Below are positions 3,568 to 64,000 of a stretch of DNA of 64,000 bases, one piece after another. Positions within the stretch are counted from its first letter, which is position 1. Every line of letters begins with the position of its first letter. Below the pieces are notes generated by a model. The model was not told the DNA's origin. It saw only the letters and a program-made list of their open reading frames with translations, and made no database searches. A program made the position numbers and the translations under genes. The DNA is from Mytilus edulis (taxonomy: Eukaryota), in NCBI RefSeq assembly GCF_963676685.1, contig NC_092355.1, forward strand, positions 8,866,001 through 8,930,000, read 5' to 3'.

Positions 3568-5148
3568 TGGACTTACCGTAATACAATATCATTTCTCAAC
3601 TAGTTTAATCGAATGCTAACGTGCTACAATTGGATTTACCGTATTACAATATCATTTCTCAACCAGTTTAATCGAATGCTAACGTGCTACAATTGGATTT
3701 ACCGTAATACAATATCATATCTCAACTAGTTTAATCGAATGCTAACGTGCTACAATTGGATTTACCGTACTACAATATCATTTTTCAACCAGTTTAATCG
3801 AATGCTGATGTGCTACAGATAGATTTACCGTAATACAAAATCATATCTCAACCAGTTTAATCGAATGCTGATGTGCTACAAATGGATTTACCGTAATACA
3901 AGTACTATATATACCATGGTTTTTACGAGTTAACATATTTAAACAAACGAATCCGAAGGATGAGTTTGCTTAAATATGTTAATGAGTAAGACACATGGTA
4001 TATAAAATTTGTAATATAAATAAAATGATTGACAGCTTCAAGACCTTCAACTAATATTGGAAATTGATCACGTTACAGTTTTATCCAATGAAATGGAAGC
4101 TCGCGCAAGTCACTTTTGCGCTTCGTGTATGATCGTCTGTGTACTTCATGTAATAGAACCCCTGAATTTGCAGAAAGTAAAGAAAATGTCAGATTTTCCC
4201 TGATGTGTTTTTAGTTTTGCGCCCCGTGTATGATTGTAGGCGCAGGTAATTTCATAATGTCATCAGACTGAGGTAAACAAAAATGTCGGATTCCAGCGAC
4301 AAGGATTAAATAATTATTCTAATGACGGTAAGAATTGGTTTTTTTTCAATGTATCATACAAATTAATCATATTTTACAGAATTTTCATCTAATTGAAAAA
4401 TGCTTCTCTTCCGTTATTTTATTAGATTATTTATTAAAACACAATTTTAATGATAAAATAATATTTTAACAGTGGCGGATCCAGGGGCGTAGATAGTGTA
4501 CGTCCCCTATAAATCATGTTTTTTCACAGATATTTGTAGCCGATATTTATTCCTTTTTGTATAGGTACCCCCCTTTTTAAATCGAATTTAAATTGAATTT
4601 TCGCAAAGGAAATGATAGTGTTACATTTTATTTTTTTCAAAACTGAAAAAGAAACATTTAGTAATTGTTTCCAAAATTAAGGGAATTCGTAACAATTCTA
4701 TGTAGTTTGAAAAAGGTTTCTTGAAATGTGGTACACATAATGTATTGCTTTTTCTTATAAAATGAAAACAAATGAAGATCTTGACCTTTTAGTACGTTTT
4801 ACAGTTTCCTAAATATTTTAGAGGCGGATACATTAAAAAAAAAGGTGGAGCTTCAGCCATGGAATAACATGAAAATGAATATGTTATACCATGGCTGAAG
4901 CTCCGCCTTTTTTTCTTTGGATTCTAGTCGAGTTGCATATTTAATTAGCAAAGTATGGTACAACATAAATTTGCATATAATATACCATGGTTTTCCCTCA
5001 CCACACTTTTTAAGCAAATTATTTCATAAAAACATCAAAGGAAAAAATCCAATTTATGTTACAATATCATATATCAACCAGTTTAATCGAATGGATTTAC
5101 CGTAATACAATATCATATCTCAACCAGTTTAATCGAATGCTGACGTGC
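3568..5148. repeat. 63-bp intronic minisatellite (about 5 units at 3568-3900, resuming about 5060-5148), split by an inserted element
   Basis: TGGATTTACC at 3631 and 3694; uninterrupted homologous array of about 3 units in copy B at 42403-42581. Confidence 0.85.
3904..5064. mobile_element. Non-autonomous element with long terminal hairpin and asymmetric sub-terminal inverted repeat
   Basis: Hairpin arms about 3907-3948 / 3964-4004; TTGTAATATAAAT (4009-4021) pairs with ATTTATGTTACAA (5052-5064); absent from the homologous array in copy B. Confidence 0.65.
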
Positions 5149-18000: not shown

Positions 18001-18325
18001 CACATGCAATGAACATAGCAAATTCTAGTGTAACCACATCCATTGAACATAGCTCATTTAAATGTTACCACATGCATTAAACATACCACATTCTAGTTTT
18101 ACCAAATGCATTGAACATATCAAATTTTAGTGTTACCACATGCATTTAACATAGCACATTCTGGTTTTACCAAATGCATTGAGCATAGCACATGTTCGTT
18201 ATACCACATGCATTAAACATAGTACACTCTTGTGTTACCCGTAGTCTTGAAAACAGTACCTTTTGGTGTTACCACATGCATTGAAAACAGTAAATTTTGG
18301 TGTTACCATATGCATTGAAAATAGT
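12097..18325. repeat. 34-bp satellite array (about 180 units) with higher-order structure
   Basis: Unit CTAGTGTTACCACATGCATAGAACATAGCACATT; homogeneous centre, diverged right end. Confidence 0.97.
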
Positions 18326-18736: not shown

Positions 18737-21684
18737 AGAGTTGTCTCATCGATTGTTTTGTTATTGAGTTGTCTCATGGATGATTTTGTTATTGAGTTGT
18801 CTAATGGATTGTTTTGTTATTGAGTTGTCTCAAAAATTGAGTTGTCTCATTGATTGTTTTGTTATTGAGTTGTCTCATGGATTGTTTTGTTATTGAGTTA
18901 TCTAATGGATTGTTTTGTTATTGGGTTGTCTCATGGATTGTTTTGTTATTGAGTTGTCTCATTGATTGTTTTGTTATTGAGTTGTCTCATTGATTGTTTT
19001 GTTATTGAGTTGTCTCACGGATTGTTTGTTATTGAGTTTTCTGATGGATTGTTTTGTTATTGAGTTGTTTCATGGATTGTTTTGTTATTGAGTTGTCTAA
19101 TGGATTGTTTTGTTATTGGGTTGTCTCATGGATTGTTTTGTTATTGAGTTGTCTCAAAAATTGAGTTGTCTCATTGATTGTTTTGTTATTGAGTTGTCTC
19201 ATGGATTGTTTTGTTATTGGGTTGTCTCATGGATTGTTTTGTTATTGAGTTGTCTCATTGATTGTTTTGTTATTGAGTTGTCTCATGGATTGTTTTGTTA
19301 TTGAGTTGTCTCATTGATTGTTTTGTTATTGAGTTGTCTCATGGATTGTTTTGTTATTGAGTTTTCTGATTGATTGTTTTGTTATTGAGTTGTCTCATAG
19401 ATTGTTTTGTTATTGAGTTGTCTCATGGATTGTTTTGTGATTGAGTTCTCTCATGGATTGTTTTGTTATTGAGTTTTCTGATGGATTGTTTTGTTATTGA
19501 GTTTTCTCATGGATTGTTTTGTTATTGTGTTCTCTCATGGATTGTTTTGTTATTGAGTTTTCTCATGGATTGTTTTGTTATTGAGTTGTCTCATAGATTG
19601 TTCTGTTATTGAGTTCTTTCATGGATTGTTTTGTTATTGAGTTTTCTGATGGATTGTTTTGTTATTGAGTTGTCTCATAGATTGTTTTGTTATTGAGTTG
19701 TCTTATGGATTTTTTGTTATTGAGTTGTCTCATGGATTGTTTTGTTATTGAGTTGTCTAATGGATTGTTTTGCTATTGAGTTGTCTCATGGATTGTTTTG
19801 TTATTGAGTTGTCTCATGGATTGTTTTGTTATTGAGTTGTGTCATAGATTGTTTTGTTATTGAGTTTTCTGATGGATTGTTTTGTTATTGAGTTTTCTGA
19901 TGGATTGTTTTGTTATTGGGTTGTCTCATGGATTGTTTTGTTATTAGGTTGTCTCATTGATTGTTTTGTTATTGAGTTGTCTCATGGATTGTTTTGTTAT
20001 TGAGTTTTCTGATGGATTGTTTTGTTATTGAGTTGTTTCATGGATTGTTTTGTTATTGAGTTGTCTCAAAAAATTGAGTTGTCTCATTGATTGTTTTGTT
20101 ATTGAGTTGTCTCATGGATTGTTTTGTTATTGAGTTGTCTCATGGATTGTTTTGTTATTGAGTTATCTAATGGATTGTTTTGTTATTGGGTTGTCTCATG
20201 GATTGTTTTGTTATTGAGTTGTCTCATTGATTGTTTTGTTATTGAGTTGTCTCATTGATTGTTTTGTTATTGAGTTGTCTCACGGATTGTTTGTTATTGA
20301 GTTTTCTGATGGATTGTTTTGTTATTGAGTTGTTTCATGGATTGTTTTGTTATTTAGTTGTCTAATGGATTGTTTTGTTATTGGGTTGTCTCATGGATTG
20401 TTTTGTTATTGAGTTGTCTAAAAAATTGAGTTGTCTCATTGATTGTTTTGTTATTGAGTTGTCTCATGGATTGTTTTGTTATTGGGTTGTCTCATGGATT
20501 GTTTTGTTATTGAGTTGTCTCATTGATTGTTTTGTTATTGAGTTGTCCCATGGATTGTTTTGTTATTGAGTTGTCTCATGGATTGTTTTGTTATTGGGTT
20601 GTCTCATAGATTGTTTTGTTATTGAGTTGTCTCATTGATTGTTTTGTTATTGAGTTGTCTGAATGATTGTTTTGTTATTGAGTTGTCTCATGGATTGTTT
20701 TGTTATTGGTTTGTCTCATCGAATGTTTTGTTATTGAGTTGTCTCATTGATTGTTTTGTTATTGAGTTTTCTGATGGATTGTTGTGTTATTGAGTTGTCT
20801 CATGGATTGTTTTGTTAATGAGTTTTCTGATTGATTGTTTTGTTATTGAGTTGTCTCATGGATTGTTTTGTTATTGAGTTGTCTCATGGATTGTTTTGTT
20901 ATTGAGTTCTCTCATGGATTGTTTTGTTATTGAGTTTTCTGATGAATTGTTTTGTTATTGAGTTTTCTCATGGATTGTTTTGTTATTGTGTTGTCTCATG
21001 GATTGTCTTGTTATTGAGTTGTCTCATCGATTGTTTTGTTATTGAGTTGTCTAATGGATTGTTTTGTTATTGAGTTATCTCAAGAATTGTTTTGTTATTG
21101 AGTTGTCTCATGGATTGTTTCGTTATTGTGTTGTCTCATGGATTGTTTTGTTATTGTGTTGTCTCATGGATTGTTTTGTCTCATGGATTGTTTTGTTATT
21201 GAGTTGTCTCATGGATTGTTTTGTCTCATGGATTGTTTTGTTATTGAGTTGTCTCATGGATGGTTTTGTTATTGGGTTGTCTCATGGATTGTTTTGTAAT
21301 TGAGTTCTCTCGTGGATTGTTTTGTTATTGTGTTGTCTCATGGATTGTTTTGTTATTGGGTTGTCTCAAGAATTGTTTTGTTATTGAGTTGTCTCATGGA
21401 TTGTTTTGTTATTGAGTTGTCTCATGGATTGTTTTGTTATTGAGTTCTCTCGTGGATTGTTTTGTTATTGGGTTGTCTCATGAATTGTTTTGTTATTGTG
21501 TTGTCTCATGGATTGTTTTGTTATTGTGTTGTCTCATGGATTGTTTTGTCTCATGGATTGTTTTGTTATTGAGTTGTCTCATGGATGGTTTTGTTATTTG
21601 GTTGTATCATGGATTGTTTTGTTATTGAGTTGTCTCATGGATTGTTTTGTTATTGAGTTGTCTCATGGATTGTTTTGTTATTGA
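18737..21684. repeat. 28-bp satellite array (about 105 units)
   Basis: Unit ATGGATTGTTTTGTTATTGAGTTGTCTC, period 28. Confidence 0.97.
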
Positions 21685-22532
21685 ATTGTCATTTGTTATG
21701 TTCTGTTCAAATCTAGAAACCATGTCAGTGGGTGTCTTTTGTCATGTGTCATTCAAATCCAGACATCTTATCAGTTAATGTCTTTCGTCATATCTCAAAG
21801 AGTTTTGTTATTTGGAGAATTTGGTGTTGCTGCAAACTTATAGCATGTTAGATACTCAGTAGTACAGATAATTTTATATTTATGTAAACTTTAGTCTAGA
21901 CAAATTTCTTGTTATTTTGTTTTTAAGTTGTCTTTTCCATTTTAATAGAACGTTGCTTATACATTAATATTGCTGATTCGAAAATCAATATAAAACCAAG
22001 ACCTCCTTTTGAGGTAAAAGAGTAGAAATAGATTTCAAGAGCCGTTATTTTATTACAATCATTTTCGGCTAAAAGGGGAAAATGTATACAATGATACCCG
22101 ATGAAATGTGTGGGACGTTAAACAAATAACCCTGCAGTAAAACTATATCAATGAATAGAAATAAATTCAACTTATGAATAAAAACCAAAGTAAATATATA
22201 GAGATTAATACATGGCCTTTTCCATATCAGCCTGGGTATCATCCCGAGACCCCCATACCAGCCCGAGACGGAGTCGAGGTGCTGATATTGGTCGAGGGAT
22301 GATACCCAGGCTGATATGGAAAAGGCCATGCATTAATCGCTTTATCATATACTTCCGACCATAGTTTTATGAAAGGCAAATAAACTAATGCAATAACTAA
22401 AACAGTCAAACACTTTATAAAGAAAATTAAAATTATGAATCAAATATACTATAGTTGTCCAACAACAGCATAATTAACTCCTTATATATTTATGGTAACA
22501 TTTCCTATAGAGGCATTTTGAAACATTGAAAA

Positions 22533-34223: not shown

Positions 34224-34942
34224 TTAACCATGTCAGATCAAGGTTGATAAAACATTGACGAATTTAACTATTTAAGAGATTAAATAACAACATATTTGGT
34301 TGATTTAGTAACGAACGTGCAAAAGACTGGACTTATTTAATCTCAATTTGAATATAGATATTAATCTGTTAAATAAAATATAAATATATAAATTGCATGA
34401 ACATGACAAACTGAAATACAGATATTAAATGACGCCACCATAGGAAACACACAATAGGGATATTATTTGTTTGAATTTCATTAGCTTGTTTTCTACTCTT
34501 TGTCCTGCTTTAATAAGCACGGAATTTAGTAGTTGTTTTTTTTTACTCAGCGGTTCAAATGTAACGCAAAGAATAGAAACTTCAAAACTTGTAAATGGGA
34601 AAATATGGAATTTATTTTAAAGGTACAGCTATTGTTAAGGTGAAACCGATGCATCATCATAAATACAAAAAGAAGATGTGGTATGATTGCCAATTAGACA
34701 CCTCTCAACAAAAATTCCTAAAAGTTTTCTAAGGTAATCTATTTCTGAGGTCGACAAACCGTAGTATTTAAAACAAACACAGTTTTTGTAAACAGTTAAT
34801 TCATGATTATGAACATATCAATAATTACTCAAGTCAACACAGGAGTGTTGATTACTGGGCTGGTGATGCGAGTGCTTACGAATAATTACTGAATTTAGCA
34901 TATCTATAAGATAGTTCATAGTGAAAGTTTTTCAGATAGCAA

Positions 34943-35275
34943 ATAAACTGATCCTGTGATCATAGATACAAGGATTAAAATTTTAGATATACGCCAGACG
35001 CGCGTTTCGACTACAAAAGACTCATCAGTGACGCTCGAATCAAAACATGTTAAAAAGGCCAAATAAAGTACCAAAGGTTGAAGAGCATTGAAAACCGAAA
35101 GTTCCTAAAAGTTTTGCCAAATACAGCTAAGGTAATCTATTCCTGAGGTAGAAAAGCCTGAGTATTTAAAAATTCAAAGTTGTGTAAACAGTTAATTTAT
35201 GATTATGAATTTATCAATGATAGCTCAAGTCAACACTGAACTGTCAGAAGTGCTGACTACTGGGCTGCTGATGCG
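34943..35275 (-). mobile_element. Retrozyme-type repeat unit (partial second copy at 34712-34870)
   Basis: Carries the hammerhead at 34991-35034; its body matches 46010-46127 and 42581-42705. Confidence 0.75.
34991..35034 (-). ncRNA. Minimal type I hammerhead ribozyme (one helix II mismatch)
   Basis: Reverse complement GCGTCA CTGATGA GTC TTTTGTA GTC GAAAC GCGC GTC^TGGCGT. Confidence 0.8.
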
Positions 35276-39283: not shown

Positions 39284-40280
39284 GTAAGACGTACTGTAGG
39301 TTCATTGAGAATTATCACCAGAACCCACAATGTCAAACGAATATACTAATGTTTCTTTCTATAGAAACTAAAGCAAATATAGGTAACAGTAGTATACCGT
39401 CGTTCGAAATTCATAAATCGATAGAGAAAAAACAAATCCGAGTTACAAACTAAAACTGGGGGAAACGCATCAAATATAAGAGAACTACGACACAACAGAA
39501 ACACGACATTAACATTAAACACACACAGAAACGAACTATAATATAACAATGGCCATTGTCCTGACTTGGTACAGGGCATTTTAAGAAAAGAATGGAGGTT
39601 TGAACCTCCCGCTTTAATGGCAATGTTAATTATAACATTAAAATGACAACAATACATGACAGGACTACAATACAAAAAAAAGTAAATATAGGACAGAGAA
39701 ACATACGAATAATCGCCAACGAAAGGTACTAGGTTAAATAAAAAAAATTAATACGCCAGACGTGCGTTACGTACAAATAACGAATCAAACATCATCAACA
39801 CCCATAAATAGTTGCCATGAAAAAAACCCAATCTAAGTTTAGTTTAAACAAATCTTATTATTCAAAATGAGTATTAGATCGCACAAAAGTTTTACAACTT
39901 AGTAACGTCTTCTCCAAAACAACAAAAAATACACATTAATTCATTAACACATCAAATATTCCATACTTACAAATAATTTAGGCACACAGTGCAATAAATG
40001 TATCTATAGACTGTAAATATATGTCTATATTATTTTTAGAATCCACCCTATCCAAAAGATAATCACTAGTTTTTAAGATTTCTGAATGTAAAGTTATATA
40101 TGAGAAAATTTAATGACTAATTTTGAATCATTCGTTCATTTATGTATTATAAATTTGATAGGCTGAATAAAAGTATTCAAATGTCTGTCAATAAAGATAA
40201 ACAAATAAGTCATCCAAGTAACCGGTATTTCCTAAATCCAGGCAAATGTTTTCATTCCATTTATGTTTGAAATTTTGTAG

Positions 40281-42007
40281 GAATGAGAGGATATCCTGGT
40301 CGAACTGGATCTCAAGATTTCAATGGGTCTCCAGGAATAAAAGGTAAAACTGGTGAAAGAGGACCTTCTGGACCAACTGGACAAAAAGGAATGGCTGGAG
40401 CCCGTGGTAATGATGGAATGGATGGAGCAATAGGAGCAACAGGTGGTGATGGTATCCAGGGACAACCAGGACAAATAGGACCTGTTGGACCAACTGGACA
40501 AAAAGGAATGGATGGAGCAATAGGAGCAACAGGTGGTGATGGTATCCAGGGACAACCAGGACAAATAGGACCTGTTGGACCAACTGGACAAAAAGGAATG
40601 GATGGAGCAATAGGAGCAACAGGTGGTGATGGTATCCAGGGACAACCAGGACAAATAGGACCTGTTGGACCAACTGGACAAAAAGGAATGGATGGAGCAA
40701 TAGGAGCAACAGGTGCTGACGGTATCCAGGGACAACCAGGACAAATAGGACCTGTTGGACCAACTTGACAAAAAGGAATGGATGGAGCAATAGGAGCAAC
40801 AGGTGCTGACGGTATCCAGGGACAACCAGGACAAATAGGACCTGTTGGACCAACTGGACAAAAAGGAATGGATGGAGCAATAGGAGCAACAGGTGGTGAT
40901 GGTATCCAGGGACAACCAGGACAAATAGGACCTGTTGGACCAACTGGAAAAAAAGGAATGGATGGAGCAATAGGAGCAACAGGTGGTGATGGTATCCAGG
41001 GACAACCAGGACAAACAGGACCTGTTGGACCAACTGGACAAAAAGGAATGGATGGAGCAATAGGAGCAACAGGTGGTGATGGTATCCAGGGACAACCAGG
41101 ACAAACAGGACCTGTTGGACCAACTGGACAAAAAGGAATGGATAGAGCAATAGGAGCAACAGGTGGTGATGGTATCCAGGGACAACCAGGACAAATAGGA
41201 CCTGTTGGACCAACTTGACAAAAAGGAATGGATGGAGCAATAGGAGCAACAGGTGCTGACGGTATCCAGGGACAACCAGGACAAACAGGACCTGTTGGAC
41301 CAACTGGACAAAAAGGAATGGATGGAGCAATAGGAGCAACAGGTGGTGACGGTATCCAGGGACAACCAGGACAAATAGGACCTGTTGGACCAACTGGACA
41401 AAAAGGAATGGATGGAGCAATAGGAGCAACAGGTGGTGATGGTATCAGGGACAACCAGGACAAACAGGACCTGTTGGACCAACTGGACAAAAAGGAATGG
41501 ATGGAGCAATAGGAGCAACAGGTGGTGATGGTATCCAGGGACAACCAGGACAAATAGGACCTGTTGGACCAACTGGACAAAAAGGAATGGATGGAGCAAT
41601 AGGAGCAACAGGTGGTGATGGTATCCAGGGACAACCAGGACAAATAGGACCTGTTGGACCAACTGGACAAAAAGGAATGGATGGAGCAATAGGAGCAACA
41701 GGTGGTGATGGTATCCAGGGACAACCAGGACAAACAGGACCTGTTGGACCAACTGGACAAAAAGGAATGGATGGAGCAATAGGAGCAACAGGTGGTGATG
41801 GTATCCAGGGACAACCAGGACAAACAGGACCTGTTGGACCAACTGGACAAAAAGGAATGGATGAAGCAATAGGAGCAACAGGTGGTGATGGTATCCAGGG
41901 ACAACCAGGAGCCCGTGGTATTGATGGAATGGATGGTGATACTGGACAAACAGGGCCACCTGGACCAACTGGTCCAAAAGGAGAAACTGGTTCAACAGGA
42001 CATAGGG
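40281..42007 (+). pseudogene. Copy B main Gly-X-Y exon, disrupted
   Basis: 1727 bp = 192 triplets minus 1 nt; GGA>TGA at 40766 and 41216; 1-bp deletion at about 41446; Gly substitutions at 40316 (D), 41144 (R) and 41863 (E). Confidence 0.85.
40418..41910 (+). repeat. 90-bp coding tandem repeat, about 16.6 units (MDGAIGATGGDGIQGQPGQIGPVGPTGQKG)
   Basis: ATG of each unit at 40418 + 90n (shifted by 1 after 41446). Confidence 0.97.
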
Positions 42008-42629
42008 GTATTTAAAATTTTAAATATTTGTTGTGCCGTAGGCACATGCTTTTAAATGTGTGATTATATAAATACTTTGATCCAAATTTTATAATCATAT
42101 GACAAACCACAATTTATCTCTATTTTAAATTTGATTTTTTTTTCTTCCATGTTTCTGATTTTGTTTTAAGAAGTATTCACTTTGATAGTTTTAAGATCTT
42201 TTAACTCCTTCGTCGTTTTGTCAATATTGTCTTTCAACAAAAATGTAACTCATCAAGATTATAAAAATGAATAGAAGTCCGAATACTAGTAGCTAGGTAC
42301 TCAATAACTTTATTTTAAACGCCAACTTCTTCTTATTGTAATATACGTATTAAGCTTCTCACTATTGTTAAGCACCTGTTCATCACTAAAAAAGTGAAAC
42401 AAATGGATTATAAAAATTACAATATCATTTCTCAACCAGTTTAATTGAATGCTAACGTGCTACAATTGGATTTCCGTAATACTATATCATTTCACAACCA
42501 GTTTACTCGAATGCTGACGTGCCACAATTGGATTTACCGTAATACAATATCATATCTTAACCAGTTTAATCGAATGCTGACTCCTCAACTTTCTACTTGT
42601 TTTGGCTTTCGAACTTTTTTTTTATCTGA

Positions 42630-42673
42630 TTGTCACTGATGAGTCTTGTGTAGACGAAACGCGCTTCTGGCGT
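42630..42673 (+). ncRNA. Degenerate minimal type I hammerhead ribozyme
   Basis: TTGTCA CTGATGA GTC TTGTGTA GAC GAAAC GCGC TTC TGGCGT; the cleavage triplet reads UUC, which breaks the C-G pair of helix III. Confidence 0.65.
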
Positions 42674-45600
42674 ATTAAATAATAAGTCTGGTACCTTTGA
42701 TTACTATTATAATCTAGGATTTGTTTAATGAATTGCCCCCCTTCCAAAAGAAAAATCACAAAAAAAACCAACCAACATTATTTTTAGGCAAGGGATGATG
42801 TTTTAACAATATTCTTCATTTATATTGAGACTATTTTCAACAAGTTGTCTCGGATTTTCTACAGAGATATATATAACACATAAAAGAAATGTCTAAATAC
42901 TCAAACATAAAACATGACTAAATGTTAATCAGCAAATATCGACGCAAAGTTATAAAGTCAAAAACTCCTAAATATGCACTTGTATTTGTTATTACAGATG
43001 CGTTTTCTAGACTGCACTGAAGGCAACAAAGACCCCTCCAAATCCATACTGGACGTAGGCGTGGACAATGCATTGTTATTTAGTAGTTTTGATGAGAAAA
43101 TGTTCTTTAAACGCGGAGGAAAATATGTATGGAGTAAAGCGGACTTGAGATTGGAGTGGTGACCATAGAAATTGACTTGACCATTTGAGATTATAAATGT
43201 TTGAGGCAGCATAGCATAGAGAAATGTATTAACCCATCCATTGATAGTATTACACTATTAAAAGATTTTAATTGAATGATATTTGCCTTCCAAAATGCTA
43301 TTCCTGACTTTTTATACGAAAACATATTCAACATGATTTTGTAGAATACAACATTATTTATTGCTTATTTAGTTTGTGCTAATGTTGATATATTATTTTT
43401 TGCAACATACATCGGTTTAGGCTGATCTAAAATAAGTGAGTTTACATGATCGATTTTCCAGTAATTTGCAATTGTTTATTTGAAAATCTTTTCATTTGAA
43501 TAACCGGTATTTGTTATCTAATCATACTGTAATATTAATTTGAAAAAAGGAAATTGTATCATTGATTCATTTTTTTATAATTAATTTTATCAAAGGAAAA
43601 TACTCAAGACTATTCCGTTTTTTAGAGGAATTAACTGTAAATATGTGTTGATATAAAAACGAAAATATGTACGGTGACCAGTTTTTTTTTTTTTTTAAAG
43701 CAAATCACATAAGCTTTGTTCCAATTATTTTGTTGTTATTGTTTTCTATTGTTTTATTACGTTTTCTTTGTTTATACTTTTTAAAGTTCTTTTTTTTTCT
43801 AAACGTATAATCATAAAAAAACTCAATTAGACACAAAGTGTAGCTTGACTTGTTCCGGATGACACATTCTTTTCATGTTTTTTTCATAATAGAACAATAG
43901 AAACGATTTTTTGGCAAAGTACGAACTGATGCTTTTGTCTCGTCTGCGACGGATGTCGCGGCAAGTGTGACATAACAATTGCATTTCCGGCGACGATGAT
44001 GATATAGTCACCAATTGTAAAGTTTTCTGCTAAAGTTAGTTTGTTAGGAACTACTTGCAATAGATCTGCTATTTTTAATAAACATTTGCATAACTATAAA
44101 TACATGTATCAGATTGAAGAGTTTTTTGAGGCCCTGTCGCCAAGGTCATGGTCCTGTGACTTTGGATCAATTTTCAATGTTAAGTTTTCTGTTGAATTAA
44201 TATTAATAAGAGCTCCTTATAATAGACAACAATATTTTCGATAAAGTTGCATTGCTTTTTGTGCATCATGGGTTTTTCGACACTTTTGAGGACCTGTACA
44301 TTAGATCATGGTCTAGTGACTGAATAAATAAACAATATTGCTTTCCATTAGATTATTGTTTTCTGAATTGTATCCCGATAGACAAGACGTATCTATGTGT
44401 CAACAGTTTATCTATTTACACTTTTATCTTCCCTTAACACTATAAAAAGACTCTAACAGAGACATATACTATAAAACACATACTACATGTATCAATTGCA
44501 ATTTCATATTAAAATCATAAAATCATTTCCCTATAACGAATAAAGTTTCATCTAACTGCTGATACATGTAGTAGTCATTCATAATCAAACAAACATATTG
44601 TAAAGGTAGTAGTACATGTATGTCAAGGAGTTTATTATACCTAAATTTTATTGCACACTCATATTTGTATCAGGTCTTTATTAGCTTTTTAATTTCATAA
44701 TTATATTACTATTTTTAAATTTATGGCGGACAATATAAAAACCAAGTGTTATTACACATTAATTAAAATTATGAAATATATTAATGTACATACACATATT
44801 TATTGGTATGAAAAAACCTTTATCATATATGCTTTCTGTGATATATTTACCATTTTATTTTAAGTGTAAATAAAAGGACATCAGAAACAGAGAACATATG
44901 CACTTCTATTTCAATTTCATTTTACCTTTGTATTATTGAAATAAACAGTCAACCAGGGTTTAACTGTAACCCTAGGTCATAAAACCTTTATGTCATATTA
45001 AAATTATCAAAATATTTTGCATATTCTAAAAGTAACTTTATATGTAGGAATCAATTCGTGCCAACTATGTATAATTACTTTCCTGAATTAGTGGTTATAT
45101 ATCATAATTGTATATATATTATTCTAAATCATATTACCTCATTGTACAAAGCGTTTATTTAAATTTGATATTTACTCAATCATTGTTATAAAGAATTTGA
45201 CATAAACTTGTTTTCATGATTATTTGTCTCTTATAAAATAAAAAAACCAATAAAATATGAACACTGAATATGTCTCTCCTTGATTGGAACTCAATACAAA
45301 CATCAACATTGTTCCAAAGGTGAGTCTGATCTAGGGACATTTATTTCCTATCTATGATATGTTCCTGGTCGGATCATGATATAAAATAAAAGCAACAGTA
45401 GTATACCAGTGTTCAAGTCATAAATCGATTGAGACAAAACTAATCCGGGTTACTACCTTAACTTGGTGCATCGACACGACGTCATGAAATTATAATTCAT
45501 ATTCAGTAAAATTAAGAAACAGAATATTATTTAGTTTTTAATATTCATAATAGGAATATGAATAGATAATACAAATGGAAAATGGAAAATGTGTCGAAAC

Positions 45601-46187
45601 AATCCGACCAGAGAGAAAAACACAATCCAATGCCACCAAGATGTTTTACGCGTGGCCAGAACATCCCTCACCTGTAGGCGGGCTTCAGTAAATGTATACT
45701 AGTTCAGTGAAATAGACTCCACACTTATCTCCGAAACATACAAGTCTTGTAATAGTATAAACCATGCCTCTTGATCTCCCCCATCATAGTTGGTAAGGAA
45801 AAAGGTTGAATGTCGTACAGTAAACTTTTAAAAAATGTAGTTAAATGGCCAGTTGCGCGAAACGCGCGTCTGGCGTATATATAAAATTTAGTCCTGGTAT
45901 CTATGATGAGTTTATTTATAAGTACGCTCGGTCAGTGATATTTGTTGCGATTGTATATTGTACCACATTTGCACATTTACACTTTCATATTGATTAATAC
46001 ACTTTTAATTATTCGAAATACTAAAGATTTTCTTATCCCAGGCATAGATTAATTTAGCCGTATTTGGCACAACTTTTTAGAATTTTTTGTTCTCAATGCT
46101 CTTCAAAAATGTTCAACTTTGTACTTGCACAGAGCCTAACTACGGCCAACTTTTTTTTTTCTTATTTCCTAAATTGGAAACAAAATA

Positions 46188-47177
46188 ATGAATTCCGATA
46201 GCTCAAATGAAGAAGCTACAATTGCAGAACCTACCGTTCTTGTAGAAATATTAAAGACACTTACAAAAATGGAGGAAAGAATGGGTAAAATTGAGAGGAA
46301 ATTTGACCAAATAGAACAAATTACCTTCAAGCTAGAAGAAATAGAGAACGCGGTCAAAACTATAAATGAAAGAAACGAACAGACTGAGAACAGTTTTGTA
46401 GGTTTAAGCACAGTGGTGGATGACGTTATCAACCAATGTACCGGGAATAAACAGGAAATTCAAGAGCTGAAATTGGAAATGGAAAAAATAGGATCGGAAG
46501 TGAAAAAATCAAACACCGCAAAAGTCACTGATCAATCTAACGTTATTCAAAAAATGGAAGAAAGTTTGATAGATTTAAAGTGTCGCTCTATGAAAAATAA
46601 TCTGATATTTTCTGGTCTACAATACCAGAAGGATGAGCATGTTGAAGAAAAACTTAGAAATTTCTTACAAAACGAACTTAAAATAAACCATCGAATAGAG
46701 TTCGGAAATGCCCATCGGTTTGGAAAACAGGGCTTTAATGGAACGAGGCCAATAGTTGCAAGGTTTTTGTTCAGAAAAGATTTAGAGATGGTGCTTTCTA
46801 GTGCTTACCACCTTAGAGGAAAACCTTTTGGGATTAAAGAGCAGTTTCCGTTTGAAATTGAACAAGCGCGGAAAAAGCTTTATCCTATCTTAAAGAAAGC
46901 CAAACAGGACGGCAAAATGGCAAGCCTGGTACGGGATAAACTATTTATAAACGGGAAATTATACATGGAAGAGAAAATAAAGACACATTCTCAAACACCG
47001 GCAAAAATGACACAACAGAAAATTGAGGCAACCAACCAGAGCCCGCCAATCCCACCGAGATCAAAACGAGCTAGGACTGAGTCAGATAACAGCCCTATAA
47101 GAAGAAATCTCAGAAACAGTGATTCCATACCTTCTCCATCAACACATGCGAACAACACACAACCAAACCAATATTAG
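46188..47177 (+). CDS. LINE ORF1p (coiled coil + RRM + CTD, L1 ORF1/Transposase_22-like)
   Basis: Heptad-rich N-terminal half, RSMKNNLIFSGL, AHRFGK, RPIVARF, EQFP.EI...RKKL, DKLFING motifs. Confidence 0.85.
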   Translation: MNSDSSNEEATIAEPTVLVEILKTLTKMEERMGKIERKFDQIEQITFKLEEIENAVKTINERNEQTENSFVGLSTVVDDVINQCTGNKQEIQELKLEMEKIGSEVKKSNTAKVTDQSNVIQKMEESLIDLKCRSMKNNLIFSGLQYQKDEHVEEKLRNFLQNELKINHRIEFGNAHRFGKQGFNGTRPIVARFLFRKDLEMVLSSAYHLRGKPFGIKEQFPFEIEQARKKLYPILKKAKQDGKMASLVRDKLFINGKLYMEEKIKTHSQTPAKMTQQKIEATNQSPPIPPRSKRARTESDNSPIRRNLRNSDSIPSPSTHANNTQPNQY

Positions 47178-50100
47178 AGTGGCCACGGAGAACAACCAGC
47201 TAGACAACATACAAAAACGAATATTGAAAATGATTTTAAAAGCAGTAATATATTCTCACTCCCGAATTCAGACATTTATAATGCTTCGACTTCAACCAGT
47301 AGCGATACATGTAACAGTCCTAGAAAAAATATTTCAGCTGGTAGTGATCTAAACATTTTATGCCTGAACTGCTGTGGAATTAAGTCTCGCGTGAATTATC
47401 CAGAATTTAAAGACATTATAGATAATCATGAAATAGTATGTCTTGTAGAAACTAAAACCGATGACATTGATGTGATAAATCTTCCCGGTTACGAATTCAA
47501 AATGAAAAACAGGAAAAAAGTTACGAAAACGAGATCGGGTGGTATTACAGTTGGCTACAAAGAACATTTGAAGACAATGATAGAAATAATAGACACAGAA
47601 TGTAAATATGTAATGTGGTTTCAAGTTAACGGTAAAGCATTTAATTTAGATAAACCCGTTGTTTTTGGAGTCGTTTACATACCTCCGGAATATACTAGGT
47701 ATTCCTCAGATGAAGCTGTTAATGAGATTGAACAAGAATTTCTACGCTTTTCGAACATTTCAAATTACATATGCCTCTTAGGGGATTTTAATGCCAGGAC
47801 AGGTTGTGATGATGATTTTGTAATTATAAATGAAGATGAACATGGTGATAATAACTTGTCTGACTTTATCGAAAACCCTATTAATGCTCTAGAAGCTCTG
47901 TATATTCCCACGAAGAGGGAAAGTATGGATAAAGGAAAAAATAGATATGGCAATATGCTGTTAAATTTTTGCAAAGGCAACGGGGTTTTTATACTAAATG
48001 GAAGATTGGGAAGGGATCAAAATATCGGGCGATTTACTTGTCGTAATGCCAGTGTAGTTGATTATTGTATAAGCACTCCTGAACTTTTGAAAACGTTTAA
48101 GGACTTTGAAGTTTTAGATTCAAGTAAGTTATTGTCAGATGTTCATAACCCACTCTCTATTACTTTTTTCTGTGATAAAAACTTGGCAATTGCCCATGCG
48201 GAAAATGTCGATTATTTTAGTAAAAAGAATACGTTTACGAAGATAAAAAGATGGAATTCTGAAAAGATAAAAGATTTTCAAAATAATATTGATGTAGAAA
48301 AAATAGCAGAATTTGAATACAAACTTACAAATACTGATTTAACTGTAGTGAATAAGAACATCATTAATTCACTTATAGATGATCTGTGTAATTTTTTTGT
48401 CAAGTCTGGGCAGACAACTTTTGGTACTTATACTGTAAAACAGAATAAGAAAAGGGGATATTTTGGAAATAAGAATAAACCCTGGTTTGATGAGGAATGT
48501 AAATTTGCACGTCAAAATTACAGGAAATTAAAAAGACGTTTCAAGTCCAAAAATCATTCTAAAAACAATTCAGACATGTTAAATGCCGAAAAAGCGTATA
48601 AAAACATTCTCGATAGCAAATTTAGAAACTTTAGAAAAGATCTTTCAGATAAAATTCAAAATTTGCGTGGCAAAAATCCGAAAGAATATTGGAAAATTTT
48701 AAATCAGAATAAAAGAAAGAAACAACCAGATATTGACATTGGAAAATTACACGATTTTTTCAAAAATTTAAACGCTGCACCGGAAGATGAAAAAAATGTG
48801 CAATTTCCAGAGATCAATCCCATGCAATGTGAACAGATGAATGAACATATAAATTCGCCTTTTTCAAAAGATGAAATTATCCAGTCTATTAAAAAACTGA
48901 AGAATGACAAAGCTTGTGGTGAAGACGAAATTATAAACGAATACATAAAATCCACATCAAACCAGTTTTTATGCATTTATGAGAAACTTTTTAATATTAT
49001 ATTTGATAAAGGTCTTATTCCACATAGGTGGCTTATAGGTACAATTAAACCAATTTATAAAAACAAAGGAAACTCCAAAGATCCAAAGAATTATAGACCA
49101 ATTACTATCGTTAGCTGTCTGGGAAAACTATTTACAGCAGTTTTGAATAAAAGACTTAATGATTTTTCAGAAGAGTTTACCTTAATACAAGAAAATCAAA
49201 GTGGTTTTCGGCAAAAATATTCTACTACAGATAATATTTTTACCTTGCCTTGTATACTTTTTTTGAATTATTGAAATGTAGGAAAAAGAAATTATATTGT
49301 GCCTTTATAGATTTTGAGAAGGCTTTTGACACTGTATGGCGAGATGGTTTGTTTTATAAAATGTTGTTAAATAATATAAATGGTAAGATGTATAAGGTTA
49401 TATCTAATATGTACTGTGATACTAAATCTCGTAAATCATACAATAATTGTAATTCAGAATACTTTGCTTGTGACAACGGCGTACGACAAGGAGAAAACTT
49501 ATCACCTTTCCTATTTTCTCTATTTTTAAACGATTTAGAAGATTTCTTGGTTAGTACAAATATTACAGGACTTAAAACCTTATCAGAAGACCTTGAAAGA
49601 GAATTAAAAATACATCTAAAACTTTTTATCATATTATACGCAGATGACACGGTGCTGTTGGCCGAAACAGCACAGGATCTGCAGACGCAACTCAATGCCT
49701 TTCATGACTATTGTAAGGTTTGGAAACTGAAAGTAAATGTTGACAAAACTAAAACCCTAGTATTTGGTTTGGGACGTTTGCCAAAAAAATCTCCAATTTA
49801 CTTATAATGGCGTAAGCATTGAGTTAGTAAAGCAGTTTAACTATTTGGGTATTGTTTTTACTAAAACAGGAAATTTTAATATGACTAAAAATATTTATCC
49901 GATAAGGCCTTAAAAGCCATGTACGAAGTCCTGAAAATAGGAAGGATGTATCAGCTTTCTGTTAAATGTCAGCTTGACCTTTTTGACAAAATGATCAAGC
50001 CCATTCTATTGTATGGGTGCGAAATATGGGGCTTTGGTAATAATGATATCCTGGAAAAGATTCATTAAATTTTTTAAAATTCTTTTAAACTTGAAATCCT

Positions 50101-50825
50101 CAACGCCAAATTATATGGTTTACGGGGAACTAGGTCGTCATCCGATCGAAATAGATATTAAAGTTCGAACAGTACTATTCTGGGCAAATTTGATATCCGG
50201 TAAACAAGCAAAGTTTTCCTTCATATTATATCAACTTTCTCGTCATATGAACGAGCACCATAATGTCCAGATAAAATGGATCCTGTTTATACAAAAAATA
50301 TTTCAAGATTGTGGTTTCTCATACATATGGGAGTCACAAAATTTTGTTAATAAAGAATGGTTAAAAACTGTTATAAAGCAGAGATTGTTAGATCAATATA
50401 TTCAGAACTGAAATTCCCTCATTCAAAATTCACCAAAAGGTATTAACTACAAAATTTTTAAGAAAAACTTGGAATTCGAAGAATATTTTAATATTTTGGA
50501 CTTCAAAGACGCTATTGTTTTTTGTCGATTTAGAACGACTAATACTAAGCTGCCGATTGAAACAGGAAGATGGCAAAACGTGATCAGAGAAAACCGCTTT
50601 TGCAGTCTATGTAACAATCGACAAATAGGTGACGAATATCATTTTATATTTGAATGCAATTTTTTCCATCAAAAACGCAAAGAGTTTTTAACTGAATATT
50701 TTACAAAACGGCAAAATACAGTTAAATTCTCTGAACTTATGTCAAGTACAAGAAAACCAGTTCTGAAGAAGCTTTGTTCTTTTATAAAAAATATAAATAC
50801 TAGTGTTTGTACTCCTGGCTTGTAA
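47178..50825 (+). pseudogene. LINE ORF2 (AP endonuclease, reverse transcriptase, C-terminal CCHC), frameshifted
   Basis: LNCCGI, CLVETK, GDFNAR, VVDY, SDVH; NYRPI, QSGFR, FIDFEKAFD, GVRQG.NLSP, YADD; CSLC..DEYHFIFEC. Breaks at about 49250 (CCTTG duplication), about 49790, about 49890, about 50065, and TGA at 50409. Confidence 0.9.
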
Positions 50826-50952
50826 CTTTTGTAACCTCTCTCGCTTGTTTTGTACATATTGTAAATATTTATTGTTGTATCTGTTATCTCTGTACCGATG
50901 TAATGCATTGGCTTTATGAGAATAAAGATATATATACAATTATTTGATCTAA

Positions 50953-50996
50953 GCGTCACTGATGAGTCTTATGTAGACGAAACGCGCGTCTGGCGT
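50953..50996 (+). ncRNA. Intact minimal type I hammerhead ribozyme
   Basis: Helix I GCGUCA/UGGCGU, core CUGAUGA, helix II GUC(UUAUGUA)GAC, GAAA, palindromic helix III AC-GCGC-GU, cleavage GUC^ after 50990. Confidence 0.9.
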
Positions 50997-51145
50997 ACTA
51001 AATTATAAGCCTGGTACCTTTGATAACTACTTAGATATACAAAAGTACGCAAACACCTCCAAGTGAAATCAACAATATATCGGAAAAAAACTACTGTCAA
51101 ATATTAACAAACATAAAAACACCAGGGCTAATCTGTCTCGCTTAG

Positions 51146-51535
51146 GGATGTTCGCTACTCTGTGTCAAAATAACAAGCTTTTTAAAAGAAGGTTATAAAT
51201 TGATAGTATATAAGTAAAGAAACTAGAAAAGCAGAACAAAATTAGGGGTCCGTGTGCTTGTTTTCGAGATATAAGCCATTGAAAATTTGGCGGGAAATAT
51301 TTCTCTCTAGATTTTTCATACAATTAACATTGTCATTATTTGTCTTTCAAAACCAATGAAAAAATAACAAGGATTTTATCAGATTTTCAAATATGACTTA
51401 TAAATCTATATGTAATAAAATTATGAAAAGAAAAATAGGGCTTAATGGGCAAAATTTTTAATGGGCACTAGATGGATAAAACCAGAGGATTTCGAATATC
51501 TGACGAAAATTCAAAAACAAGAGGAGCGAACATCC
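51146..51535. mobile_element. MITE, Kolobok-like termini
   Basis: TIR GGATGTTCGCT / AGCGAACATCC flanked by TTAG/TTAA. Confidence 0.7.
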
Positions 51536-59635: not shown

Positions 59636-61953
59636 TTACAATACAGAGCAAGGACAAGAAGAAAGAGTGTCCACCATCATGTGTTCTGATACAATCATTA
59701 CTATAGATGTATGTCTATTATCTGTAGCAATCTGTAAAGGGGATTTCCCATCTAGTCTACAAATCTGTGTATCTGCACCTTTATCTAACAATACACGTAC
59801 AATATCCTCATTTCCTACTTCACATGCAAAAAATAATGGAGTTGTTTCGTCTTCGTTTGTCATGTTGATGTTAGCATTGTGGTCTAGAAGACAACGGACT
59901 ACATCTAGCCTATTCATAAAGCATGCCAAGTGTAATGGAGAACAACCAGCCTCCATATTGAAGACGTAGTTTACTGTTTTCGTACTGATATAATCTGCTA
60001 CATATGAGGATGCTTTCTCTATAAGATAATCAAAACAAACCTGTTTTTCTTTTTCTAATGTTTTTGATGAATCACTTTTAATTGTATCTATGAAAGACTG
60101 TTTACTATAGCAACACATATTACAGTCAGCATTGCTCTTTACAAGTAGCTGTGTTATCTCTAGGTTTCCATTCAGTGCACTGAACCTTAAAGCATTACAT
60201 CCCACATAGGTCTGGGCATCAATGTTTGGTTTATGTTTCATTAATAGCTGTACTATACTGGTGTATGAACCTTCACAAGCATTAATGAGTGGTGTGAAAC
60301 CATACTTGTTACATAAATCAACATTAGGATTCTTCTCTAACAGTAACTTTACTATATCAGTATGTCCATTCTGACTTGCCCTGTTCAGAGGACTACAGCT
60401 ATTATTGTCACATAGATCAACATTAGGATTCTTCTCTAACAGTAACTTTACTATATCAGTATGTCCATTATGACTTGCCCTGTTCAGAGGACTAAAGCCA
60501 TTCTTGTCACATAGATCAACATTAGGATTCTTCTCTAACAGTAACTTTACTATATCAGTATGTCCATTCTGACTTGCCATGTACAGTCCAGTAACCATAT
60601 TATTTCTACATTGATCTACATTCACATTATTATGTAACAACCACTGTACAATATCAGTATAACCATCATAACAAGTTAGTATCAGTGGAGTATTACCTGA
60701 TCCATAATTCTCCTTTGGTATCATTATGTCCTTGGTATTGGCTAATGCTACTTGTTCTGATGTTTTTAGTTGTTGTAAGTAATGTAATAACTGTTGTATG
60801 AATGATGATCTCTTCATATTATTGTTGTTTAACACAGCTGTCACATATCCAGATGACCAGTCCTTTATACACCTTTTTAGATATGTTTCTAAATTATTAT
60901 CTGGTATTTCAATGAAGTCTATGTTACTGTTCTCGGCATCTAGTGATTTCTGCCAAATAAAACGTGAATGTACTAATTCACTATCACCATGGTCTATCAG
61001 ACATTCAATTATTTTCTGGCCGAAGTAATGAACAAGGAAGTCAAAAAGTTTATCATGTAGAGATCTATAAACACCATTTTGTTTACAGATAAATGTACCA
61101 TCGAGGGTGTCAAGGGCATGTTGCATTTTTGTCTTGGATATTCGTCTGTCCAATCCACAAGCATTAAATGTGTCTTTTATGATCTGGTTTTGCTCCTTCG
61201 TTACTTTTCCCAAGAACCATTTTTCTTCTAGGTGATTATTAAAAAGAACACATAAAGCAAGACTACATATTCTATATTTCCCTTCATCACCATGTGCACT
61301 TAGATTGTCTAGCTCATTTTTATAGAAAGCAAAAGGATTTTTGAAAAATTCTTCTGCATCTACATTTTTCTTGTCATGATATAAACTACACAACAGTGGA
61401 AAAAAATCATACTTTTGTGATAAGTCATGAAGATCTTTCATGCGTGTGCCAATGTAAGTATTTGCTATCTTTGTTTTCTCTACAGATGTAAGTCCTAACG
61501 TATCTGATATTAAGTTGCATTCATTTGATTTAAAAGTTGATAATATATTAAACTTTTCATCTTTATAGACTTGTAACCTACATGAGACAATAATCTTACA
61601 ACATTTATCTGCAATAATAGTATCAATCACAGGTAACATTTGTTTCCAGTTATCAATATGTTGTTGGTTGGCAGTGAAATTTCCACAAATATCATCTACA
61701 ATGAAGACTGTCTGTTTACCAGGTTGATAATAAGTTCTTACGTCTGTTGGTGAGTAAACTGGTATTATATTGTATCCTTCTTTCTTTAAAAGAAGTGCTG
61801 TGTGTCTTGCAATGAATGATTTTCCAACACCTGATGGGGCGGTTAGAGTCAAACAACTGTTGTCCTGTAAACGTTCCATGATGTAATCACTGGCTCTAGT
61901 AGACACGAACATCTTATCTTTCTTTTCCCAGTCTTCTGTTTGTTTTTTTTTAT
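59636..61953 (-). CDS. Terminal exon of a STAND (nSTAND3-like) P-loop NTPase - ankyrin repeat protein
   Basis: Open 778-aa frame; Walker A APSGVGKS, Walker B VFIVDD, KIIVSCR; about 9 ankyrin repeats; acceptors ttttcag (61959-61961) or tgcag (61954-61955) at its start, so earlier exons lie further right. Confidence 0.9.
60290..60585 (-). repeat. Three near-identical 99-bp ankyrin-coding units
   Basis: GHTDIVKLLLEKNPNVDLC x3; DNA block at 60317, 60416 and 60515. Confidence 0.9.
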
Positions 61954-64000
61954 CTGCACTGAAAATATACAAGAGTAACTAATACAAAACCCAACTATTA
62001 ATATGCCAGCTTTAGCTGTCACTTATGGAGGAAGCATCGTTTTGGAATAAAGAACTATAACTCTCTCTACACGACCCATCTGAAAAGTTTCGTCACTCTA
62101 GTTAAATTTGGTACGATTATTTTTTTTAATGGCTCCCGAATTTGTTTCAACGCGAACTTGAAAAAACGGAACAGATCGGAAAAATTTCGATGTTGAATAC
62201 GACATGAATTATTACTTGTTTACAAAAACAAGAATTCAGAAATTTTGGTAACTTGTGTAGTTTATTTAAATTTATTGTACCGCGGAAATAACAGAAGTTT
62301 GGACAAAAACATCTGACGCCATGTTTCGTCTGCTCATCTTTTCATTAGCAGTGAGGTAAAAACATATTTCCTAAATAATCACAGGTACTTCATTTAAAAG
62401 TCACACAATTATAATTAATGATAACATATTTAGCGTAAAAGTTCAGTCCAACCATGGGAACACAGAAAAAACCTCTGCAAGCAATACATTTCAGATTTTT
62501 TGTTTATAATGGCCATGCGGCATGCGGGAAAAACTCCGGTGCACTGGTTGACCATGACTTCTTATGTTCATCTGCCACATAATTCAACAGTGATAATGAC
62601 GTTGGTTATACTGCTGAATGTGATCACGGTTATTCATGTAGCACATAGACTAATTCAAAACTTAACAAAAGTTTAAAACAAAACAAAATATTCAAATAAA
62701 TCACAATCTTCTAAATTTTTCTGTACTTCTTTGGCAAACTCTCAACAAATCTTTTTACTGATTATGTGGCATATCAGAAATCTACCTTATACAGTCCCAG
62801 GAGATTTTGTTTTCTCTCTCCAAGTTTAATCATGAGGAGACTTGAGTCTGAGTAGTACATTTAACTTTTTTTTAAGTACAGACTGTATATATTGTGTGCT
62901 CCCATATTGTCCAAAATTGGATTTTATGGGAAGATGGAGTTAAAATGATAACCCATGATAATACCATGACTTTGATAGGTATATATACAGGGCATGTTAC
63001 TTGGAAGTATGTAGGCTACATCCTTTAAAATTCCAGCTGCAACTGTCGCCTGTATATTTTGGGCGTCAGTTTAAACCTGATCAAAACATTTTCACTCTAC
63101 CTAGTACTTTATCACTACACCAGGTGCACATTTCAACATTGAGCAGTACACACTTATGGTTTTAAAACATCACAGTACCAAAATTGCACTTAGTAACCAA
63201 ATTGCACCTATTCAACAAAAAAAGCTGCGGAAATCTTACAAGTTTCTTTTCACCATGTGAAGTAATCTGATTATCATCTTTTGAAAATGAGCAAATTAAA
63301 TTTGTTACAAGCATCCTTTTCTTCAATATAATTGTTGAAGCATGGAATAATGTAAAATCGTTCGAAATATTTGAAGAAATAAAACAAAATGTCTGTTTAT
63401 ATTTCAGTTTTAAGGATTTGAAATTAAACATGTAATGATGTATGGAATTTGGGTACTGACTTCATTACAGAATCAATTACAGTTCAAAGCCTTTTTTCTA
63501 TGACTCGACATGGACTCAAAATTAAATTAGTGTAACTATGTTGTAAACAAAGATAGTCTATAAAATAAGCACAGAATGGACTTTTGTCTGGTTCACAAAA
63601 AAAAATTGGTGAAAAAACTGACAATAAAGGTGCAATTTGGGTACTCTCATGTTAGCAACTTCACAACTGCAAATTTATTTTCAGGACGAAAATAAAAAAA
63701 AGTACAATCCTAAAAGGCCATAAAATGCTTCGCCACGCACAGCCTGATACGACCACAGATGTATATTTAGCATATAACACACACCAAATTGTTTATGTCA
63801 GTTGAAATCAAGCATATTTTAATTGTGGGCCCTTCAAACTTCAATATAGACTAATTTGAAAACAGGTATCAGGTGAACCCAAACATTTCTATTCAGCAGC
63901 AGTCTCTAGCTACATATCTCCTTAACTTTATATGATAGTCCTACACAAATATTGAAAATGTGTATTTTCATTTTTTCTAGCTTCTCTCATGGTAAAGCGG

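What the first reader, a model, noticed from the sequence alone, without database searches (positions are those of the whole stretch)
50953..50996. Intact minimal hammerhead ribozyme with palindromic helix III
Seen: all core nucleotides are present (CUGAUGA, GAAA, GUC), with a 6-bp helix I, a 3-4-bp helix II and only a 2-bp helix III inside the palindrome ACGCGCGT. Known: such minimal type I hammerheads of Penelope elements and retrozymes cleave mainly as dimers through the palindrome, and tandem copies give circular RNAs. This element is invisible to ORF-based annotation.
Basis: partly seen in the sequence, partly recalled or inferred. Interest (0 to 1): 0.7.

Follow-up and report, generated by a model that had tools for sequence, protein, structure and literature searches.

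The report
Retrozyme remnant likely copied by Naiad
This correctly formed hammerhead (self-cutting RNA) motif is the broken last piece of one of thousands of copies of a small jumping repeat, likely the known mussel retrozyme, and those copies stop at the same point beside the same predicted RNA hairpin as Naiad jumping genes, so Naiad's enzyme likely copies them.

Summary
The hammerhead is real (Rfam Hammerhead_1, 33 bits, E 1.1e-5); the same 44 bases occur 6,073 times in this genome. It is a canonical type I motif, not a 'minimal' Penelope one. It is the 3' end of a ~355-bp repeat that matches the published mussel retrozyme in size, number and two-family make-up (published sequence not seen). 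This copy is 5'-truncated, likely split by a young broken LINE, has no tandem partner, and no reads cover its own 3' flank, so it cannot give a circle. The addition: 80 of 86 copies picked only on the ribozyme core end 36-60 bases past the cut site, just before a covarying hairpin that three Naiad (hammerhead-less Penelope-like) families carry ahead of their ORF; 16 of 16 Naiads end in the same register. Naiad reverse transcriptase likely binds this hairpin and starts internally. A general Penelope link is in print; the Naiad signal was not found in my searches. This scan noted both the fixed end and the Naiad hairpin before on other DNA; I found the fixed end independently, took the Naiad lead from those notes, and re-tested it.

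The parts
50953..50996 (+). Canonical type I hammerhead motif; predicted cut after C50990; palindrome 50982-50989
   Evidence: 6,073 identical copies
50938..51033 (+). 3' piece of a family-1 retrozyme copy; ends 43 bases past the cut site, the family's fixed end, 19 bases before where the Naiad-type hairpin core would start (the hairpin is absent from this copy)
   Evidence: 93-97% to natural array units; ends; no hairpin hit in window
46001..46127 (+). 5' piece of (likely) the same retrozyme copy; family 1, collinear with the 3' piece, 8-12 bases missing at the join
46128..46132 (+). 5 bases matching neither retrozyme nor LINE at the LINE 5' junction
46133..50937 (+). Young, 5'-truncated, broken APE-RT LINE (ORF1 46173-47177; ORF2 in four pieces 47178-50825; AATAAAG + (TA)n tail) lying between the two retrozyme pieces; no target-site duplication
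   Evidence: other copies 97-100% identical
45858..45921 (+). Separate short family-2 retrozyme insertion: starts inside the hammerhead, ends at the family-2 fixed end
42581..42708 (+). Another truncated family-1 copy; helix I and III changed; same 3' end
34956..35272 (-). Older family-2 copy (79% to family 1) with a helix II mismatch; a further decayed piece at 34729-34867

Best explanation
The motif is the hammerhead at the 3' end of one truncated copy of a ~355-bp non-coding repeat, likely the published mussel retrozyme, whose copies were likely written into the genome by the reverse transcriptase of Naiad Penelope-like elements. Shown here: the repeat, its tandem arrays, its fixed 3' end and scattered 5' ends, and a ~70-85-base hairpin module shared with the start of three Naiad families that end in the same register. 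From the literature for the mussel family: self-cleavage and abundant circular RNA. Inferred: array transcripts self-cut after C17 and are ligated to circles; Naiad protein binds the hairpin, nicks AT-rich DNA and starts cDNA about 20 bases upstream of the hairpin core; after about 43 bases it crosses the ribozyme cut site, so the template must be a circle or an uncut multimer; it stops at random, giving truncated monomers to multi-unit arrays. This copy likely ran about 225 bases, was later split by a LINE, lacks the hairpin and a second ribozyme, and is likely a dead end.
For: Repeat: 26 array units of 346-364 bp; 9,462 exact 40-base core matches; two families. Fixed end: 80 of 86 clusters picked on the core alone end at +36 to +60, while 5' extents spread from 35 to 355; 25 of 28 picked on the hairpin instead end at +39 to +51 (the sets partly overlap). 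Naiad identity: N-terminal GIY-YIG, CxC, DKA, RT after. Shared module: retrozyme versus Naiad B 55 of 68 bases identical in register over the hairpin, 9-11 of 40 in flanking blocks; alignment score 82 versus shuffled maximum 27. Covariation: 8 of 20 pairs change on both sides, 97.8% of cells paired, slid controls 33-55%. Register: 16 of 16 scored Naiads end 14-22 bases before the hairpin core, 78 of 86 retrozyme clusters 14-24. Specificity: the hairpin model has no hit in 14 stretches with C-terminal GIY-YIG elements (5 families) or 4 LINE 5' stretches. Precedent: internal RT start downstream of the hammerhead on uncut RNA in an anole Penelope-like element (PMC11167929, parts 1-2 of 4 read).
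Against: No enzyme test. Identity with the published family rests on size, copy number and two families; the supplement was unreadable. Naiad A matches the hairpin weakly in sequence (score 33 versus shuffled maximum 32; model E 0.01-1). The covariation set is 9 related sequences and Naiad B and C were in the model's training set. Hallmarks often seen in Penelope-like insertions are weak here: duplications of 7 or more bases in 4 of 75 versus 1.3% null, adjacent inverted arm in 3 of 86, no second fixed end. 5' completeness of the control elements was not checked one by one. Circle versus uncut multimer is not resolved. The empty (LINE-free) allele was not seen.
Confidence: 0.75

Rival explanations
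1. Same retrozyme, but copied by a hammerhead-bearing canonical Penelope-like element or by a LINE; the Naiad hairpin is an inherited relic.
For: PMC7229834 and the 2026 preprint (10.64898/2026.07.22.740005) tie retrozymes to hammerhead-bearing pLTRs; such elements exist here (a hammerhead 0.8 kb after the ORF in L189).
Against: No hairpin in 5 canonical families or the LINE; retrozyme ends match Naiad ends to within a few bases; no poly(A) or LINE-like tail at retrozyme ends; the hairpin is kept in three retrozyme-like families, one with a different hammerhead.
Confidence: 0.1
2. One reading: a minimal Penelope-type hammerhead that works only as a dimer through the palindrome, at a locus giving circles.
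For: Perfect 8-base palindrome, kept in 173 of 182 sampled motifs (sample partly selected on it); monomer helix III unstable; PMC4209133 describes dimer rescue of such helices.
Against: Architecture is the canonical one; no Penelope ORF beside it; no tandem partner; mussel repeat reported to cleave at about 0.1/min (PMC7229834).
Confidence: 0.07
3. The hammerhead serves the LINE, as a 3'-end processing signal or a specific target site.
For: It starts 15 bases after the LINE tail, same strand; one other copy of this LINE also interrupts a retrozyme (L038).
Against: 1 of 30 LINE 3' ends (this one) is followed by the hammerhead; L038 is at a different position; retrozyme DNA is 0.6% of control loci, so one more hit in 29 is within chance.
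Confidence: 0.02
4. The 3' piece is a separate, later 95-base retrozyme insertion into the LINE's TA tail, not half of a split copy. This changes the history of the locus only.
For: An 8-base direct repeat (50932-50939 and 51035-51042) flanks the piece; Naiads favour (TA)n targets (PMC8557442).
Against: The 5' piece is same-family, same-strand and collinear to within 8-12 bases; the retrozyme pieces are more diverged (90-97%) than the LINE (97-100%); part of the repeat fits the retrozyme's own sequence; the family rarely shows duplications.
Confidence: 0.12

Closest known systems
Mytilus galloprovincialis non-LTR retrozyme (Cervera and de la Pena 2020, PMC7229834; read: abstract, passages, sections 14 and 17; supplement unreadable; passages of preprint 10.1101/721605)
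   Same: Type I hammerhead in ~350-390-bp repeats, thousands of copies, two related families, low GC, expressed; Penelope-like helper proposed.
   Different: That text gives no fixed 3' end, no shared hairpin and no named helper clade. Sequence identity to the cloned repeat could not be checked.
Vertebrate retrozymes as non-autonomous Penelope-like elements (Li, Clavereau, Pollet 2026, bioRxiv 10.64898/2026.07.22.740005; read parts 1-3 of 5, the main text; supplements closed)
   Same: Retrozymes depend on Penelope-like elements.
   Different: There retrozymes resemble hammerhead-bearing pLTRs, no mollusc is sampled and no initiation signal is described. Here the likely helper lacks a hammerhead and shares only a ~70-85-base module that lies downstream of the element's 3' end.
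Naiad Penelope-like elements (Craig et al. 2021, PMC8557442; read passages and section 6)
   Same: N-terminal GIY-YIG, CxC, DKA; fixed 3' end with 5' truncation; partial tandems; present in Mytilus; no hammerhead.
   Different: The retrozyme encodes no protein and adds a hammerhead. The conserved 5' hairpin was not mentioned in the parts I read; the optional 30-40-bp tail was not seen as a second end.
Anole Poseidon (PAc) internal RT initiation (Frangieh et al. 2024, PMC11167929; read parts 1-2 of 4)
   Same: cDNA starts inside the RNA, downstream of the hammerhead, near the ORF start; uncut RNA is the substrate; AT-rich targets.
   Different: Different clade, two start sites about 30-40 bases apart and 85-92 bases past the cut; here one zone 39-52 bases past the cut, in a non-coding parasite.
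Minimal hammerheads of Penelope-like elements (Cervera and de la Pena 2014, PMC4209133; read parts 1-2 of 4)
   Same: Type I topology, palindromic helix III region.
   Different: Minimal forms lack helix III and have a long helix II with a bulge; this motif has the canonical 6/4/2-bp layout.

Membership tests
Hammerhead ribozyme type I (Rfam RF00163) | Core CUGANGA, GAAA, NUH and three helices in type I order | tested here: met
Hammerhead ribozyme type I (Rfam RF00163) | Score at or above the family's gathering cut-off (34 bits) | tested here: not met
   33 bits, E 1.1e-5, full model length; a one-bit miss on a curator threshold
Hammerhead ribozyme type I (Rfam RF00163) | Self-cleavage after N17 | not testable with these tools
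   Indirect hint only: 5' ends of short insertions at the cut site
Minimal Penelope-type hammerhead (PMC4209133) | No helix III, helix II 7-8 bp, extra base between positions 9 and 10.1 | tested here: not met
   2-bp helix III, 4-bp helix II, no extra base
Minimal Penelope-type hammerhead (PMC4209133) | Located in the pLTR of a Penelope-like ORF | tested here: not met
   Neighbouring ORFs are an APE-RT LINE
Metazoan non-LTR retrozyme (PMC7229834) | One type I hammerhead per 150-450-bp unit, in tandem and dispersed copies | tested here: met
   Family level: 346-364-bp units, arrays of up to at least 6, 20 of 86 clusters with two or more motifs. This copy is a truncated monomer.
Metazoan non-LTR retrozyme (PMC7229834) | No protein, low GC, no LTR/PBS/PPT | tested here: inconclusive
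   Unit sequence read is AT-rich and has no LTR; PBS, PPT and coding capacity were not scanned
Metazoan non-LTR retrozyme (PMC7229834) | Transcribed | tested here: met
   Family level: depth about 2,900-4,700 over the motif in 3 RNA-seq runs of one study; not shown for this locus
Metazoan non-LTR retrozyme (PMC7229834) | Circular RNA form | not testable with these tools
   Reads crossing the cut site fit circles and uncut multimers alike
M. galloprovincialis retrozyme family | Sequence identity with the cloned Mg repeat | not testable with these tools
   Supplement too large to read
Naiad clade (for the proposed helper) | GIY-YIG N-terminal to RT | tested here: met
   Pfam GIY-YIG at 179-269, RT at 801-904 of 1053 aa; same order in 3 families
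Naiad clade (for the proposed helper) | CxC motif, DKA motif, Zn-finger-like motif before GIY-YIG | tested here: met
Naiad clade (for the proposed helper) | No canonical hammerhead | tested here: inconclusive
   Simple core-pattern scan of 6 stretches found no credible element-borne motif
Naiad clade (for the proposed helper) | RT phylogeny and insertion-in-fingers domain | not tested
   No tree built

The most novel reading that the evidence does not exclude
Mussel retrozymes are RNA-circle parasites of hammerhead-less Naiad elements: they carry a captured Naiad initiation hairpin, the Naiad RT starts about 20 bases upstream of it and rolls round the circle through the re-ligated ribozyme junction. 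The hairpin would be the first defined cis-signal for a Naiad RT and a portable ~85-base tag that makes any RNA a template.
Probability: 0.5. Interest if true: 0.7.

Novelty: new variant of a known kind. Interest (0 to 1): 0.5.

Why it matters
The ribozyme and its repeat are very likely already published, and this copy is a remnant. What matters is the footprint. Which enzyme moves animal retrozymes has been open since 2020, and the Naiad mechanism has no biochemistry in the papers I read. A shared, covarying hairpin with a matching end register names one enzyme class, one RNA signal and one start position, which a single in vitro priming assay can test. It also departs from the view that retrozymes derive from hammerhead-bearing pLTRs, since the likely helper has no hammerhead.

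Tried and rejected
Rfam gathering scan: nothing. Free folding does not give the hammerhead, alone or in the circular monomer; not evidence against activity. LINE target specificity: rejected. Target-site duplications at retrozyme ends: 4 of 75 at 7 bases, null 1.3%, none longer; LINE copies: 1 clear case among 17 truncated within view. Two-armed insertions with two fixed ends, as noted by this scan in other genomes: adjacent inverted arm in 3 of 86, second end not seen. Canonical Penelope-like helper sharing the hammerhead or tail: BLAST of 46 GIY-YIG stretches gave only embedded retrozyme copies. Run search: no RNA holder listed. Locus expression: depth 0 at 51053-51110 in 4 RNA runs, of which 6-13% was read; absence there is weak. 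No pile-up of read ends at C50990 was listed. Empty allele: joints from 46049-46106 to 50943 in DNA contigs can come from any retrozyme copy, so inconclusive; the 3' junction 51004-51221 is present unchanged in runs X16 and X19. In vivo cleavage fossils: insertions starting exactly at the cut site were 5-6 of 30 loci drawn from 352 matches, versus 2 of 30 from 141 at the next base; about a four-fold excess but small numbers, suggestive only. Literature searches for the Naiad link: 2 papers, neither reports it; none; 1; subscription papers and supplements were not visible.

Full report
Observation. The 44 bases at 50953-50996 hold a complete type I hammerhead: 6-bp helix I with two G.U pairs, CUGAUGA, 4-bp helix II, GAAA, the palindrome ACGCGCGT and C17 at 50990. 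Rfam Hammerhead_1 covers it end to end at 33 bits, E 1.1e-5, one bit under the curators' cut-off. It is not chance: 3 core matches in the window against 0.19 expected and 6,073 exact copies in the 1.37-Gb genome. The active fold is not the predicted lowest-energy fold.

What it belongs to. Genomic matches lie in head-to-tail units of 346-364 bp (26 units), in two related families, with 9,462 exact matches to a 40-base core. This fits the mussel retrozyme of PMC7229834 (about 5,000 motifs, two families, 350-390-bp repeats, kobs about 0.1/min, abundant circles). I could not read that supplement, so family identity and the host being a mussel are inferred. By PMC4209133 this layout is the canonical metazoan hammerhead; the minimal Penelope form lacks helix III. 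The family is transcribed: depth about 2,900-4,700 over the motif in three RNA-seq runs of one study, with many reads running on into the repeat body.

This copy. Only 50938-51033 matches the repeat. Directly upstream lies a 4.8-kb APE-RT LINE, 46133-50937, 5'-truncated, with ORF2 in four pieces and 97-100% identical to other copies. On its far side, 46001-46127 is family-1 retrozyme body, collinear with the 3' piece to within 8-12 bases. The simplest history is a ~225-base retrozyme copy later split by the LINE. The LINE does not target the repeat: 1 of 30 3' ends is followed by the hammerhead. A later insertion into the LINE tail remains possible because an 8-base repeat flanks the piece; the empty allele was not seen. 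With one ribozyme, no tandem partner and no reads on its own 3' flank (partial reading of runs), this locus should not yield a circle.

The fixed end. I took the first 100 genomic matches to the core pattern, merged them to 86 clusters (4 duplicate loci dropped, array neighbours fetched together) and mapped their ends. 80 of 86 end 36-60 bases past the cut site (family 1 mostly 41-43, family 2 46-52), 2 end at 18-19 and 4 run on into a further unit; 5' extents spread from 35 to 355. A second sample anchored on a different part of the unit gave 25 of 28 ends at +39 to +51 (2 duplicates dropped, partly the same loci). The window copy ends at +43. A fixed 3' end with scattered 5' ends is the mark of reverse transcription from a set start. 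That start lies near the 5' end of the self-cut linear RNA, so long copies need a circle or an uncut multimer (inference). In the anole element PAc, RT starts internally, downstream of the hammerhead, on uncut RNA (PMC11167929).

The likely helper. Earlier notes of this scan pointed to Naiad elements; I tested that. A GIY-YIG search gave one N-terminal-endonuclease ORF among 16 stretches fetched, and a protein search widened it to three families 56-63% identical, each with the Zn-finger-like motif, CxC and DKA of Naiads (features from PMC8557442). Just ahead of each ORF sits the hairpin that follows the fixed end in the retrozyme. Retrozyme and Naiad B share 55 of 68 bases there and 9-11 of 40 in flanking blocks. 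Over 9 sequences, 8 of 20 pairs change on both sides and 97.8% of cells pair, against 33-55% for slid controls (related sequences, so not a probability). Of 20 Naiad stretches, 4 were cut short before the hairpin and dropped; the other 16 end 14-22 bases before the hairpin core (family A after subtracting its 24-base extra arm), as do 78 of 86 retrozyme clusters at 14-24. A model of the hairpin found no hit in 14 stretches holding five C-terminal-endonuclease families, in 4 LINE 5' stretches or in the window; Naiad A, left out of training, scored weakly (E 0.01-1). A third repeat with a different hammerhead-like motif carries the same hairpin and end.

Against this reading: no enzyme data; weak sequence match for Naiad A; target duplications near chance; inverted arms in only 3 of 86; no second 'tail' end; circle versus uncut multimer unresolved. 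A search for insertions beginning exactly at the cut site gave 5-6 of 30 versus 2 of 30 at the next base, a hint of cleavage in vivo and no more.

Against what is known. The element is very likely the published mussel retrozyme. A Penelope-like helper was proposed in 2020 and supported for vertebrates by pLTR similarity in a 2026 preprint that samples no mollusc and describes no initiation signal. My searches found no report of the fixed end or the Naiad hairpin; closed journals and supplements could hold one. This scan has noted both before on other pieces of this and other genomes.

Verdict. Observation confirmed; interpretation partly supported. The feature is an ordinary remnant of a known family. 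The family-level footprint names a testable helper, signal and start site: new variant of a known kind, interest 0.5.

Noticed in passing
L271:5198-5530: A third retrozyme-like unit with the Naiad-type hairpin, a different hammerhead-like core, and a 3' end again about 40 bases past the predicted cut.
   Followed up: partly
L192 (minus, 4094), L194 (plus, 3104), L185:189-235: Another repeated hammerhead-like motif with no helix III (CUGAAGA ... GAAAUC), in a different abundant repeat; closer to the minimal Penelope type.
   Followed up: no
L189:5942: Well-formed hammerhead about 0.8 kb after the ORF of a C-terminal GIY-YIG Penelope-like element.
   Followed up: no
L073, L123, L282 (3' flanks): Retrozyme arrays end next to or near sequence like the Naiad A terminal repeat, a possible shared target preference; not counted against background.
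   Followed up: no
L313-L372: Variants at the cut site: C17A is about as common as C17T, and about 6 of 30 loci lack one base at the junction; could be ligation or RT scars, or selection for active variants.
   Followed up: partly
L038: A second copy of the same LINE interrupts a retrozyme at another position, with a small target deletion.
   Followed up: partly
window 59636-61978 (-): Intronless 780-aa frame with an NTPase-like N-terminal part and ankyrin repeats (labels by eye, not scanned).
   Followed up: no
window 40271-42015 (+): Collagen-like 90-bp repeat, 16.6 copies at 98% identity, broken by in-frame stops and a frame change; pseudogene or assembly error.
   Followed up: no
window 12097-18324 and 18738-21690: Long 34-bp and 28-bp minisatellite arrays with strong strand skew.
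   Followed up: no
window 51140-51400: Another expressed, high-copy repeat just downstream of the retrozyme end.
   Followed up: no
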